From Octopus sinensis (taxonomy: Eukaryota): a stretch of DNA of 64,000 nt. The position numbers and the translations under genes are program-made. Shown here piece by piece: positions 24,980 through 50,468 of this stretch. Below the pieces are notes generated by a model. The model was not told the DNA's origin, ran no database searches, and saw only the letters and a program-made list of their open reading frames with translations. The stretch's first letter is position 1; each line of letters begins with the position of its first letter. Location: NCBI RefSeq assembly GCF_006345805.1, contig NC_043002.1:111972001-112036000 (forward strand), written 5' to 3'.

Positions 24980-25150
24980 TTTTTTTTTCTAGTTTCATCT
25001 CAGAGCTGCGGCCATGCTGATGCACCGCCGTTAATGTGCTATGCTTACTGCACCTAGGTTTCCCAAGCGGTCACCCATCTAAGTACTGACTAGGCTTGAC
25101 GTTGCTTAACTTCGGTGATCAGACGAGAACCGGTGCTTTCAACGTGATGT
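24980..25150 (-). mobile_element. 5S rRNA-derived SINE-like element (5S part 25042-25150, tail and poly(A) 24980-25041)
   Basis: Minus strand CACGTTGAAAGCACCGGTTCTCGTCTGATCACCGAAGTTAAGCAACG...AGTACTTAGATGGGTGACCGC is metazoan 5S-like and is followed by GGCGGTGCATCAGCATGGCCGCAG...GAAAC and an A run. Confidence 0.85.
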
Positions 25151-25151
25151 A

Positions 25152-25281
25152 GGCACAAGGCCCGAAATTTTGGGGGAGGTGGTCAGTCAATTAGATCGAC
25201 CTCAGTACGCAACTAATACTTAATTTATCGACCCTGAAAGGATGAAAGCCAAAATCGACCTCGGCGGAATTTGAACTCAGA
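25152..25281 (-). mobile_element. SINE family C fragment
   Basis: Nin-like segment TTTATCGACCCTGAAAGGATGAAAG. Confidence 0.75.
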
Positions 25282-38039: not shown

Positions 38040-38442
38040 CTCTTTTTACTCTTTTACTTGTTTCAGTCATTTGACTGCGGCCATGCTGGAGCACCGCCTT
38101 TAGTCGAGCAACTCGACACCGGGACTTATTCTTTTGTAAGCCCAGTACTTATTCTATCGGTCTCTTTTGCCGAACCGCTAAGTAACGGGGACATAAACAC
38201 ACCAGCATCGGCTGTCAAGCAATGCTAGGGGGACAAACACAGACACACAAACACAGACACGCATACATATATATACATATATACGACGGGTTTCTTTCAG
38301 TTTCCGTCTACCAAATCCACTCACAAGGCTTTGGTCGGCCCGAGGCTATAGTAGAAGACACTTTCCCAAGGTGCCACGCAGTGGGACTGAACCCGGAACC
38401 ATGTGGTTGGTAAGCAAGCTACTTACCACACAGCCACGCCTA
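38040..38442 (-). mobile_element. SINE family B
   Basis: Near full-length match. Confidence 0.9.
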
Positions 38443-38972
38443 TATTTAATATATCTTAATATATTAATATGCTATTATATCTTATTGTGTGTATGTGTGT
38501 GTGCGTGTGTTTCATATCAGCCGTATAACAACTTTTGGATGTCTCCCAACGGCAACCCAAACCCGACTTAACAAAAATTATAACCCCTCAAAAATTCTCT
38601 ATCAAGGAATTAATTAACCTAGGAACCTGTACTATCGTAAGCAAGTAAAACAAATTTATCAGAACAGTAACAACGAACAGATTCATTAAGATGAAAACAA
38701 ATATATGTTTAAATATATCCAGAGGAACTTCCGTCGCCTGATACTTATCGGGAATCAACGCAGTTTCGGCGCTATGAGGTAGTATGGCTTATACTAACGG
38801 AAACGAACGCCTAAGAAAATATAGTCTAACATTGTTCGAGAAGATAGAAGCAAAATTCTTGGACCTGAGATACAAATCATAAACGTATAAATCTTGAACA
38901 CGACATAAAATACGAAATAAAACATAAATAATAATCACTACAAAATCGACTTATAGAAATTGTATACTAATA

Positions 38973-39827: not shown

Positions 39828-40215
39828 TGCGCAGGAGTGGCTGTGTGGTAAGTAGCTTGCCTCCCAACCACATGGTTCCGGGTTCAGTTCCACTGCGTGG
39901 CATCTTGGCAAGTGTCTTCTGCTATAGCCCCGGGCCGACCAATGCCTTGTGAGTGGATTTGGTAGACGGAAACTGAAAGAAGCCTGTCGTATATATGTAT
40001 ATATATGTATATGTATGTGTGTGTATATGTGTGAGTCTGTGTTTGTCCCCCTAGCATTGCTTGACAACCGATGCTGGTGTGTTTACGTCCCCGTCACTTC
40101 GGCAAAAGAGACCGATAGAATAAGTACTGGGCTTACAAAGAATAAGTTCTGGGGTCGATTTGCTCGACTAAAGGCGGTGCCGCAGTCAAAATGACTGAAA
40201 CAAGTAAAATAGTAA
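39828..40215 (+). mobile_element. SINE family B
   Basis: Match with small deletions. Confidence 0.88.
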
Positions 40216-44338: not shown

Positions 44339-44708
44339 AATAACATTCTCATATCTTCCATTTTCTGTCTCTCTCATTATTCAAATGTGTGTGAGAATGT
44401 ATGTGTGTATGTGTGTGCGCGTTTGTGTGAGTGTGTGTGTATAGCTTTTATTTTTAGCTCTTATTTCTAGTAATTTAGGTGTTCTAACACCCTAGTCATA
44501 TTTAGTGACAATTATAGTTTTCAAATTTAGTAAAATATTGCACACGGCTGTCTATATTAATTTCCTATATATATATATAGTAGTAGTAGTAGTAACAGAA
44601 AAGAGGAATTTCAAATTTCAATTATCCCCACGTGGTGGGTAGTAATGTATATAAGAAATTAAAAAAGGAAAATACGCACACTTACATGGTTTTAATATAA
44701 TTTTTAAT

Positions 44709-44743
44709 ATATCGACCGGTTTCGCTATCGCTATTCATGATAT
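44709..44743 (-). ncRNA. Type I hammerhead motif, A3-U8 core variant
   Basis: AUAUC-AUGAAUA-GC(GAUA)GC-GAAACCGGUC|GAUAU; lies downstream of the GIY-YIG remnant on the same strand. Confidence 0.72.
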
Positions 44744-45008
44744 TATGTTTTATTTATTTGAATATATATTTTTTCCTTAAGAAGAAATTTGGTCCATGTT
44801 GTGTGTGATGAAATTCACGAGTGAATGACTTCACAAGTAGACAAATAAAGGGAGGTAATTGGTTGTTATTATTGTTATTGTTGTGTGTAAGGGAGATAAC
44901 TGTTCAGCTTTTGGTAATGGGTGGGGATTAAATATGTGTACAGAAAAGAGACAGGTTTAAAAAAACCTTGTTTAGTAGGGGATTTAGGTATAGTGATGTA
45001 AAAGTTGG

Positions 45009-45475
45009 TTATGCGTGCATATTAAGATGTGTTTTGTATTTTTCAATGAAAAAAGTTTCTTTATTTAAACGTTCTAGTTGAGAGATTGCGTCTTTGCACT
45101 GGTAGAAAGGGAAGACTGTGAAATTTGGTTTGATGTTACCTGCACATTTTTCTATGTCTTCACTGAGAGGAATTTGTCTGTATTGCGGGAAACTGATTTG
45201 CTCCTTATGTAGAGTGATTCTCTTTCTCAAAGTCATACTCGTTTGTCCAATGTACTGATGACCGCAACCCGAGCAAGTTATTACATAAATTAGGTTCTCA
45301 GAGGCACAGGTGAAACTAGTTTTAATTGTGAACTTCTGTCCTTGTTTGAAAAGGAAATCCGAGCCTTCAAGCAGGTTGGGGCAGGTTCCACAGTTCGGGC
45401 GTCCACATTTTCAACCGTTTGTTTCGTGGTTGTTTTGTAAAGTTTTGCATTTGTTAGTAGTCTCTTTAGCTGCTC
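45009..45475 (-). pseudogene. Penelope-like element (Neptune-type) Zn-finger plus GIY-YIG endonuclease remnant
   Basis: Reading upstream of the listed ORF gives KCGRPNCGTC...FTCASENLIYVITCSGCGHQYIGQTSMTLRKRITLH...ERLNKETFFIEKY; frameshift to LKRLLTNAKL; 5'-truncated, no RT. Confidence 0.88.
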
Positions 45476-47530: not shown

Positions 47531-48345
47531 CAGTACCGTACAAAAGTCATTGGACACTTTAAGCTGTTGTAAATTTCTACTAATTGCCCAACTTATAAGT
47601 GGATGTTTCGCATTGCGTCTTTTTACAGATAGAACATTGACCATGTTGGGGTAATTTCCATACCTAATCATTATATTTTGTAGTAGGGATTCTGAATGAG
47701 AGGAAAAGATGCGAGACCGACTATGCAAAAATTGACTGTGCAAAATTTTTCAGCCTTCTCACATAAACTATTCAACAAAGTCTATAATGAAAATTAATTA
47801 CATAATGTTCATTTCAAGAAGTTACTGTACATTGTTAATATTTCATGTGGCTTCCCTTAGCTTGAATAATTGCTTCAATGCGTCTGGGAAGAGATACGTA
47901 CAAATCTTTCACCATCTTCACAGGTATGAGATGCCATTCTCTGTGGGTGAGATCCCACACTCTTCAAAATTGCGTAGATTCTTCTGACGAACTCTTCTCT
48001 TTAGTTCTGTCCGCATTTGATTGATGATATTTAATTCAGGGCTCTGAGCTGGCCAATCTTTCAATACGGTAAAACCTTCATCTGCTAAACTCTGTTGTGT
48101 TGTACGCTTCGTCATGCTGAAAAATCTCAGCTTCATCCAAGTCTGGTACCAAATTGTCCTTCAGGAATTGGATGTATCTGTCACTATTCAAGTTACCGTT
48201 AATTTTAACCAACTTTCTTGAACCATCACGTTTTATGTATCCCCAAAGCATTTATGTACCCCCAAACTTCACTGTTTTCGTAGTGTAACGTGGGTCGTTT
48301 TGCTTTCCTGGACGCCTTCTGACAAATTCTTGCTTATGAGAAAGC
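47531..48345 (-). mobile_element. Tc1-like transposon remnant (3' half plus one TIR)
   Basis: TA|CAGTACCGTACAAAAGT terminus; TVKFGG, MLWG, IFQHDEA and WPAQSPELNII motifs. Confidence 0.85.
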
Positions 48346-48888
48346 GAAACGACCCACGTTACACAACGAAAATAGTGAAGTTTGGGTGTAAGAGTCGGAT
48401 GCTTTGGGGATACATAAAAGTGATGGTTCAAGAAAGTTTGTGATATATAAAAGTGATGTTTCAAGGTGGTGGTGGTGGTGGAAATGAAGGTGGTAGGTAT
48501 GGAAGTGGTGATGGTGGTGGTGATTGGAAAAGTGTATTTTTTTGTTAACCGAACAAAGTTTTTATGTTAATTATCACTTTACGCATACACATAAGTGCAA
48601 TTCCGTGAAATAATCACGCTTATTTACGTGGCAGATATATGCAATTTAACTAAAAGATGTATCATATGCAGGGGAAACAATCTTTTAAAGGAAAAAATGG
48701 AAAAATAAGAATGAATATTTATTTTATGAGTGCTGAGTATTAAGTCTATGAAATAGTTAAATATATTCAATGAGAATATATTATATACTGAATTTATATT
48801 GAGTGCTCAATTGTATCAAAGTATTAATACTATTAAAATATTTATATATTTAATACGAGCGATTATATACATATATATTTTTTAAACA

Positions 48889-49294: not shown

Positions 49295-50468
49295 TTATTA
49301 TTAAACAAAGTTTTTTTTAAAATCTAAAATATATTCTCCATTTTCTACAATGCTCTTCCATCTAACTGGTAGTTTTGCAAGGCCCCTCTTCCAAAATCCA
49401 CTTGTCCGGGACGAAAAGTACTCCTCCACATCTGTTCTGATCTCGTCTACAGCATTCATATTTTTTCCGTCCAAATGATCTTGAAGACTGCAGAATAAAT
49501 GATAATCAGATAGGGGAATGTCCGGTGAATATGGTGGATGGGGCATCGTTCCCATTTTAACTGCGTCAGCCTTTGGAATGTCGTCCTCGCTGTATGTAAC
49601 CGATCATTGTCCTGATGGAAGAACACCTTTTGTCTTAATACCAAAGATGGTCGTTTTTCTCCAAGCGCTGACTGAAGCCGGTCAAGCTGCTTGCAGTAGA
49701 TCTTCGTTATCGTTTGATTTGGGTTTAAGACTTCAAAGTGGACTATACCTTTCATATCCCACCAAACAGATAACAACACCTTACGTGGATGAAGACCTTC
49801 TTTAGCCTGGGGTGTCAGTGTTTCTTCCTTCCCTATCCACTGTCTTCGGCGCTTGACATATTTATAGAGAACCCATTTCTTGTCACCACTGACAATTCGG
49901 TCCAAAAAAGGTTCATTTGTGAGACACGACAGCAAAGAACCCATTGACCCAATTTGCTGAATTTTCTGATAGCATGTAGGAGTCAATGAATGGTTGAATG
50001 ACCAAATCCAGGCTTCTGCTAGTTCTTCAACTGTTACAATGGGATTTTGCTCCACCAGGGTTTGCAGGACGTCCTCATCGAGCTCTACAAATCTTCCAGG
50101 ACGAGGCCCGTCTTCTAGGCTGTAGTTTCCGACTCGGAACTTCTAGAACCACCGTTGACACTGGCTTACGCTTATTGTCCGATCCCCATATCCTGCATTA
50201 ATATTCTTCGCACTTTCCATTGCGTTGCTACCTTTATTGAACTCATAAAGCAAGACAAGCCTATATGCTCCTTTGTCACTTCCATTATAGCTTTGAAAAA
50301 ATAACTGTTAAAATAGAACTGCATTATTCAAAACTTGCACAAAGAATAAGAAGAAGGTAAAATTACTACCTGCTTTTATTGCAAGTTGATGCAGGTGGTT
50401 TATCCCGTCTTCCTTCGACTTTTAATTCATGCAGTTGAAAAAACCGCATTATTTATGGGATGACTCAA
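49295..50468 (-). mobile_element. Decayed mariner transposon (5' TIR present, 3' TIR missing)
   Basis: DRIVSGDKKWVLY, KVLLSVWWD, FHQDN and HPPYSPDIPLSDYHLF motifs; TIR-like TTGAGTCATCCCATAAATAATGCGG next to TA at 50469; frameshifts. Confidence 0.92.

What the first reader, a model, noticed from the sequence alone, without database searches (positions are those of the whole stretch)
44709..44743. Hammerhead with an A3-U8 core (AUGAAUA) downstream of a PLE endonuclease
Seen: the core reads AUGAAUA instead of CUGANGA, with a perfect 5-bp stem I, palindromic ACCGGU stem III and a GUC site. Established: positions 3 and 8 form a Watson-Crick pair in the active fold. Inference: the double change is compensatory, so the motif was selected, and standard CUGANGA searches would miss it.
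Basis: partly seen in the sequence, partly recalled or inferred. Interest (0 to 1): 0.8.

Follow-up and report, generated by a model that had tools for sequence, protein, structure and literature searches.

The report
Hammerhead ribozyme with swapped core pair
A broken jumping-gene copy carries a hammerhead ribozyme motif with an A-U core pair in place of the usual C-G, and related motifs in the same genome use all four possible base pairs there, which suggests the shape predicted to cut RNA was kept by selection, although cutting is untested.

Summary
Confirmed, on the minus strand. The motif is a minimal type I hammerhead 265 nt after the GIY-YIG frame of a 5'-truncated Penelope-like element (PLE). 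A3-U8 is the family consensus: 27 of 27 endonuclease-selected copies that reach the site carry it. Genome-wide, 6,702 motifs share this frame: U3-A8 5,019, A3-U8 1,062, C3-G8 97, G3-C8 85, so 93% are Watson-Crick. Near-identical subfamilies differ by A-U versus G-C, or C-G versus U-A. Stems I and II covary too, and the endonuclease tree rejects one A3-U8 clade. The predicted best two-copy fold is the double hammerhead; the monomer fold is unfavourable. Against: no cleavage or RNA data; in one mutational scan only G3-C8 rescued activity; one small family breaks the rule; sampled copies run 70-130 nt past the cut site. PLE minimal hammerheads and natural U3-A8 are published. I found no natural A3-U8 or G3-C8 in the library, but six key papers were not held. 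This scan earlier noted one A3:U8 copy in a phage. Verdict: new variant of a known kind.

The parts
44709..44743 (-). Minimal type I hammerhead ribozyme motif with A3-U8 core pair
   Evidence: 267 exact core copies in the genome
44739..44743 (-). Stem I, 5' strand (5 bp with 44709-44713)
   Evidence: covaries across subfamilies
44732..44738 (-). Core positions 3-9; A3 = 44738, U8 = 44733
44724..44731 (-). Stem II, 2 bp (G10.1-C11.1 invariant in 19 of 19 rows) with 4-nt loop
44715..44723 (-). GAA (G12-A14) and the palindrome ACCGGU, a predicted 6-bp intermolecular stem III
   Evidence: pair probabilities 0.65-0.88 in the dimer
44713..44714 (-). Predicted scissile bond after C17 of GUC (inferred from hammerhead numbering)
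   Evidence: sequence; not assayed
45009..45410 (-). C-terminal remnant of the PLE ORF: CX5CX2C linker and GIY-YIG endonuclease
   Evidence: longer copy L034/L061 has RT + GIY-YIG
44590..45475 (-). Whole 5'-truncated PLE copy (median 91% identity to sister copies), including 3' UTR and about 120 nt of tail beyond the cut site
44564..44593 (.). (CTA)n/(TA)n microsatellite at the element's 3' end, likely the target site

Best explanation
This is the hammerhead motif in the 3' end of a 5'-truncated Penelope-like retrotransposon, with A3-U8 in place of C3-G8 across the whole family, and it likely cleaves the element's RNA after GUC only when two copies pair into a double hammerhead. Shown: the anatomy, the position after the GIY-YIG frame, the family consensus, and covariation of the 3:8 pair and of stems I and II across sister PLE families. 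Predicted: two copies pair through the ACCGGU palindrome (6 bp) and exchange stem I strands (2 x 5 bp), so each strand would cut the other. From literature: the 3:8 pair forms only in the active conformation and the general acid is the 2'-OH of residue 8, so the base can change if the pair is kept. Inferred: selection on the transposing master copies kept that active conformation, and cleavage would trim read-through or tandem transcripts to unit length, possibly followed by circularisation. This copy is alone, truncated and most likely dead.
For: Consensus: 27 of 27 endonuclease-selected loci that reach the site have A3/U8, and 2 of 29 lack the region. Genome counts for N-UGA-N-N-A-G-N4-14-CGAAACCGGU: total 6,702, control 18; U3-A8 5,019; A3-U8 690+372; C3-G8 97; G3-C8 85. 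Watson-Crick total is 6,263 = 93.4%. Clustering 196 fetched instances on flanks alone gave one cluster with 4 A-U and 6 G-C and no mismatch, and one with 25 C-G, 3 U-A and 2 mismatches. For stem II beginning GUAA (my hand count of the listings): A-U at least 37 (first 100 of 372 rows), G-C 32, intermediates G-U 3 and A-C 3. In 19 hand-picked representatives the 3:8 pair held in 19 of 19 (AU 6, UA 5, GC 4, CG 3, UG 1); covariation score 0.85 against 0.17 shuffled and at most 0.15 slid. The endonuclease tree of 38 rows needs 7 state changes (minimum 3), and a single A3-U8 clade is rejected, p-AU 1.2e-6. The dimer MFE equals the double hammerhead at -13.3 kcal/mol; the monomer hammerhead fold is +3.5. 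Same-strand tandem copies exist (L200, 3 copies at 544 nt). PMC4209133 reports PLE minimal hammerheads, natural U3-A8 and low dimer cleavage. PMC3884650 and PMC2920678 cover the C3-G8 pair and the G8 2'-OH.
Against: There is no cleavage assay. In a full double-mutant scan of one type III hammerhead only the G3-C8 swap rescued activity; other double mutants in the motif were low (PMC9901934). Published PLE minimal hammerheads cleave poorly in vitro. Stem II has only 2 bp. With 71 nt of context a downstream AU-rich hairpin (44713-44694) outcompetes stem I in the predicted dimer. Of 13 representative dimers, stem III with both stems I formed in the MFE of 8 (3 exactly as the double hammerhead) and not in 5. 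Family E (7 loci seen) keeps G8 while position 3 is C, U or A and stem I does not pair. 256 matches in the classes C-A, C-C, G-G and U-G were counted only by subtraction (94). Sampled copies run 70-130 nt past GUC, so the 5' cleavage product alone was not the insertion template. Tree and alignment rows were fetched by Watson-Crick patterns and are related, so they are not independent events. No copy flanked by two terminal repeats was seen in 28 loci.
Confidence: 0.72

Rival explanations
1. The hammerhead fold is selected, but mainly as a slow or rarely firing switch, or as a dimerisation or RT/EN-binding structure. A3-U8 and U3-A8 would be tolerated or favoured because they weaken cleavage, so most RNA reaches reverse transcription uncut.
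For: All sampled copies include sequence 3' of the cut site. A-U-type swaps were low in a type III scan. PLE minimal hammerheads are slow in vitro. 91% of motifs with this frame use the weaker A-U or U-A pair.
Against: A pure binding or dimer role does not explain keeping a tertiary pair that forms only in the active state. H17 is almost never G. A circular template also explains the tails. AT mutation bias can explain the A/U preference.
Confidence: 0.18
2. The ribozyme is a dead relic. A3 and U8 were fixed by drift in one master copy in an AT-rich genome and merely amplified.
For: Copy number reflects few master elements. There are no activity data. Family E shows that the motif can decay while the element persists.
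Against: Four different Watson-Crick pairs, several swaps on the tree, scarce intermediates (35, 36), and covarying stems I and II across families whose endonucleases match the reference at only about 50-70% amino-acid identity (59, 66, 97).
Confidence: 0.04
3. The motif cleaves as a monomer in vivo, with the element's protein or a host chaperone stabilising the 1-bp stem III.
For: Most copies are solitary. Cervera and de la Pena suggest host factors may be needed.
Against: The monomer fold is +3.5 kcal/mol. A published monomer of this class gave no cleavage. A palindrome serves no purpose in a monomer (its invariance here is built into my patterns).
Confidence: 0.06

Closest known systems
Minimal type I hammerheads of metazoan Penelope-like elements (Cervera and de la Pena 2014, PMC4209133; Lunse et al. 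2017, recalled, not held)
   Same: Location in the PLE 3' repeat after RT-EN, short stem I, G10.1-C11.1, short palindromic stem III, predicted dimer.
   Different: A3-U8 core (0 of 56 rows of their Fig. S3 have A3 or G3; 53 C, 3 U, but their descriptor favoured C3-G8). No unpaired base after A9. Stem II of 2 bp rather than 3-8.
Natural U3-A8 hammerheads (Perreault et al. 2011, PMC3088659; Schistosoma Cercyon PLEs, about 1,300 hits, PMC4209133)
   Same: Compensatory change of the same 3:8 pair. U3-A8 is also the commonest class here (5,019).
   Different: Purine at 3 and pyrimidine at 8 (A3-U8, G3-C8), and all four pairs in one genome.
Neptune/Nematis-type EN+ PLEs (Craig et al. 2021, PMC8557442)
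   Same: RT with C-terminal GIY-YIG, CX2-5CxxC linker, (TA)n targets, inverted 5'-truncated pairs.
   Different: Clade not fixed here (no reference tree); non-canonical ribozyme core.
Engineered 3:8 swaps (Przybilski and Hammann 2007 and Nelson and Uhlenbeck 2008, recalled; Roberts et al. 2023, PMC9901934)
   Same: They show the pair, not the bases, can matter. I recall that any Watson-Crick pair kept cleavage in two type III ribozymes.
   Different: Laboratory mutants of type III ribozymes with loop-loop contacts. In the 2023 scan only G3-C8 rescued.

Membership tests
Minimal type I PLE hammerhead | Core U4 G5 A6, A9, G12 A13 A14 | tested here: met
   (present in the window copy and in EN-selected copies)
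Minimal type I PLE hammerhead | Watson-Crick pair between positions 3 and 8 | tested here: met
   A-U here; 6,263 of 6,702 genomic matches Watson-Crick; 19 of 19 representatives paired, one as U-G
Canonical hammerhead consensus (literal CUGANGA) | C3 and G8 | tested here: not met
   AUGAAUA, hence a variant, not the canonical consensus
Minimal type I PLE hammerhead | G10.1-C11.1, A15.1-U16.1 and an NUH cleavage triplet | tested here: met
   GUC in the window; H17 = C in 52 of 56 of the main cluster
Minimal type I PLE hammerhead | Open stem I of 4-6 bp | tested here: met
   5 bp; all 6 stem I columns show changes on both sides
Minimal type I PLE hammerhead | Short palindromic stem III allowing a double hammerhead | tested here: met
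   computed dimer MFE -13.3 kcal/mol against monomer +3.5; prediction only
Minimal type I PLE hammerhead | Unpaired base after A9 and long helix II (typical, not universal) | tested here: not met
   G10.1 follows A9 directly; 2-bp stem II. The Marsupenaeus row of Fig. S3 also lacks the extra base
Minimal type I PLE hammerhead | Self-cleavage as a dimer | not testable with these tools
   needs an assay
Rfam hammerhead families | Covariance-model match | tested here: not met
   no hit at E<=10 on 251 nt; none in 7 related loci at E<=0.5, including a C3-G8 one
EN+ Penelope-like element | Single ORF with RT and C-terminal GIY-YIG | tested here: met
   635-aa frame of a sister copy: PF01541 above cut-off, PF00078 E 1.5e-6 just under cut-off; 465 RT-EN homologues
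EN+ Penelope-like element | Tandem or inverted 5'-truncated arrangements | tested here: met
   L191-L195, L198-L200; the window copy is solitary
Neptune/Nematis clades | CX2-5CxxC linker before GIY-YIG; (TA)n target bias | tested here: met
   CX5CX2C; (TA)n ends
Neptune/Nematis clades | Placement by RT phylogeny with reference elements | not tested
   no reference sequences in hand
Non-LTR retrozyme | Non-coding tandem repeat of about 300 nt with one hammerhead per unit | tested here: not met
   window copy carries an endonuclease remnant and is single

The most novel reading that the evidence does not exclude
These are the first family-scale natural hammerheads with purine-3/pyrimidine-8 cores (A3-U8 and G3-C8). 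One genome's PLE radiation has swapped this catalytic tertiary pair several times through all four Watson-Crick states. That would be evolutionary evidence that PLE minimal hammerheads are selected for catalysis, and would mean CUGANGA-based surveys miss about 98% of the motifs with this frame.
Probability: 0.5. Interest if true: 0.65.

Novelty: new variant of a known kind. Interest (0 to 1): 0.5.

Why it matters
Whether PLE hammerheads do anything for the element is open: they cleave poorly in vitro (PMC4209133), and Craig et al. allow that they merely parasitise PLEs. The 3:8 pair exists only in the active conformation, so repeated compensatory swaps point to selection on that conformation. 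Near-isogenic natural pairs (A-U against G-C with the same flanks; C-G against U-A) give a ready test set for how this pair tunes the rate. Search descriptors should read N3-UGAN-N8 as a pair: here only 97 of 6,702 motifs with this frame have C3-G8, and PLE clades reported to lack hammerheads could be rescreened that way.

Tried and rejected
Rfam gave no hammerhead hit. Sequencing runs: no RNA holder listed. The four runs laid were contigs only, so they show nothing on expression, strand or cut ends. No full-length element with two terminal repeats was found in 28 longer loci. No tail starting at the cut site without the core was found: 0 of 51, in a sample biased towards core-bearing loci. 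A within-family test of core against flank mismatch (5/324 against 217/3,819) was not used, because the reference was the window copy with its own mutations and post-insertion decay is neutral. The supplement of PMC8557442 showed only coding or unrelated matches to the A3-U8 strings in the 4 of 10 places displayed. Literature searches for natural A3-U8 or G3-C8 and for this host group found none; colon notation such as A3:U8 cannot be searched. Rejected: chance match, single-copy mutation, retrozyme status of the window copy.

Full report
Observation. On the minus strand, 44743 to 44709 reads as a complete minimal type I hammerhead: 5-bp stem I, core AUGAAUA, 2-bp stem II with a 4-nt loop, GAA, the palindrome ACCGGU, C17 and the second stem I strand. 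The pattern occurs once in the window and in none of 100 shuffles. The 25-nt core has 267 exact copies in the 2.72-Gb genome against 0 for the reversed control; with positions 3, 7 and 8 left open there are 294.

Setting. The motif lies 265 nt after the stop of a 133-aa GIY-YIG frame. Similarity to sister copies runs from about 45475 to about 44590, median identity 91% over 53 alignments longer than 400 nt, and ends in a (CTA)n/(TA)n run. A sister copy holds a 635-aa RT plus GIY-YIG frame with 465 homologues at E<=1e-20 among 7,988 scored; the few named animal ones are from bivalves. The CX5CX2C linker and (TA)n ends fit the Neptune/Nematis type as described in PMC8557442 (passages); the clade was not placed on a reference tree. 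Other copies form inverted pairs or short same-strand tandems. The window copy is single and 5'-truncated. My impression that the host is a cephalopod mollusc is recalled and untested.

Is A3-U8 the consensus? Yes. Of 29 loci picked only by endonuclease similarity (L032-L060, the best hits after the window itself among 150), 27 reach the site and all 27 have A3 and U8. Four of them also show a compensatory change at the end of stem I (A-U to G-C).

Is it compensatory? I counted the frame N3-UGA-N-N8-A-G-N4-14-CGAAACCGGU genome-wide: 6,702 in all, control 18. U3-A8 5,019, A3-U8 1,062, C3-G8 97, G3-C8 85; together 93.4%. Unpaired classes: A3 with non-U 78, non-A with U8 66, U-C plus G-A 39 and the remaining four classes 256, both by subtraction. 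The two listed mismatch classes read as scattered single-base decay of paired families. These counts hold only for this exact stem III and for G directly after A9, so they say nothing on canonical hammerheads of other shapes in the genome. The clearest cases are homologous pairs: one subfamily occurs as A3-U8 and as G3-C8 with the same stems and flanks, another as C3-G8 and as U3-A8. Clustering 196 fetched instances on flanks alone put these forms together. In 19 hand-picked subfamily representatives, including two of the deviant family E, the 3:8 pair held in all rows and stems I and II covaried: 89.8% of cells paired against 53.8% shuffled and at most 37.6% slid. A tree of 38 endonuclease fragments (6 of 27 near-identical family rows kept; 9 rows under half filled) needs 7 changes of pair state, and well-supported branches force at least 3 for A3-U8. 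One A3-U8 clade is rejected (p-AU 1.2e-6). The rows were fetched by Watson-Crick patterns and are related, so the number of independent swaps is small, perhaps three to seven.

Mechanism. The named monomer fold costs +3.5 kcal/mol. The minimum-energy fold of two copies is exactly the double hammerhead, -13.3 kcal/mol, with stem III pair probabilities 0.65-0.88 and stem I 0.29-0.44. This matches the published model for PLE minimal hammerheads, where monomers gave no cleavage and dimers gave low cleavage (PMC4209133). The 3:8 pair appears only in the active conformation (PMC3884650) and the general acid is the 2'-OH of residue 8 (PMC2920678), so a base swap that keeps the pair is chemically plausible. 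Cleavage itself, its rate and its role in making unit-length or circular RNA are inferred.

Results against. In a complete double-mutant scan of one type III hammerhead only the G-C swap rescued this pair (PMC9901934). A downstream AU-rich hairpin displaces stem I in the 71-nt context. Five of 13 representative dimers did not form stem III with both stems I in their minimum-energy fold. Family E, 7 loci seen, keeps G8 with C, U or A at 3 and has no stem I in register. Copies end about 70 or about 130 nt beyond GUC (35 of 95 instances carry the long tail), so insertion used uncut, re-ligated or circular RNA. No RNA evidence was obtainable. Contigs of four runs under four organism labels carry the element, with no variant inside 44709-44743 among the 40 rows shown and 134 rows hidden; this is weak.

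Known or new. Minimal hammerheads in PLE repeats and natural U3-A8 are published (PMC4209133; PMC3088659). None of 56 rows in Fig. S3 of PMC4209133 has A3 or G3. Eight searches found no natural A3-U8 or G3-C8. What I saw: PMC4209133 parts 1-2 of 4 and supplement parts 1-2 of 3; PMC3088659 part 3 of 8 and passages, not its Dataset S1; PMC2920678 part 1 of 2; bioRxiv 10.64898/2026.07.22.740005 part 1 of 5; passages only of PMC8557442 (plus one supplement search), PMC9901934, PMC3884650, PMC10085705, PMC7229834 and PMC6155905. Lunse 2017, Przybilski and Hammann 2007, Nelson and Uhlenbeck 2008, Weinberg 2015, Seehafer 2011 and Hammann 2012 were not held. What I say of them is recalled, and their alignments may already hold such variants.

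Verdict. The finding is wider than stated, since all four pairs occur, but it extends a known phenomenon. New variant of a known kind; interest 0.5.

Noticed in passing
G000 genome-wide; e.g. L132-L142, L196, L201, L202: U3-A8 minimal hammerheads are the dominant class with this frame (5,019 matches) and sit after related PLE endonucleases; at least two separate clades on the tree.
   Followed up: partly
L163-L188: G3-C8 hammerhead subfamilies (85 matches) in PLEs closely related to an A3-U8 subfamily, mostly with A17.
   Followed up: yes
L071-L100, L143, L144, L157 (e.g. L085:920-2073): GC-rich 360-nt tandem and inverted repeats with one hammerhead per unit and no PLE ORF hit nearby, retrozyme-like; both C3-G8 and U3-A8 forms occur.
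   Followed up: partly
L080, L091, L149, L150, L189, L203, L204: Family E: G8 constant, position 3 variable, stem I unpaired in register; possibly a PLE lineage with a decayed ribozyme. Unexplained.
   Followed up: partly
window 44694-44713 (-): AU-rich hairpin beginning at the cut site competes with stem I; it could slow cleavage or help product release.
   Followed up: partly
window about 44680-44690 (-): An ATG followed by a splice-donor-like GTAAGT lies about 25 nt after the cut site in most family copies; it may relate to the intron known in PLE terminal repeats.
   Followed up: no
L200:2711-4343: Three near-identical 544-nt tandem units, each with the A3-U8 hammerhead; a natural candidate for a multimeric transcript.
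   Followed up: partly
window 25042-25160 (-): 5S rRNA match, 86.6 bits; gene or pseudogene.
   Followed up: no
window 47918-48566 and 49301-50142 (-): Broken frames resembling Tc1/mariner transposases (the resemblance is recalled, not searched).
   Followed up: no
window 38197-38571 (+) and about 39900-40200: Two copies of a short dispersed repeat, SINE-like, next to microsatellites (seen in the translations).
   Followed up: no
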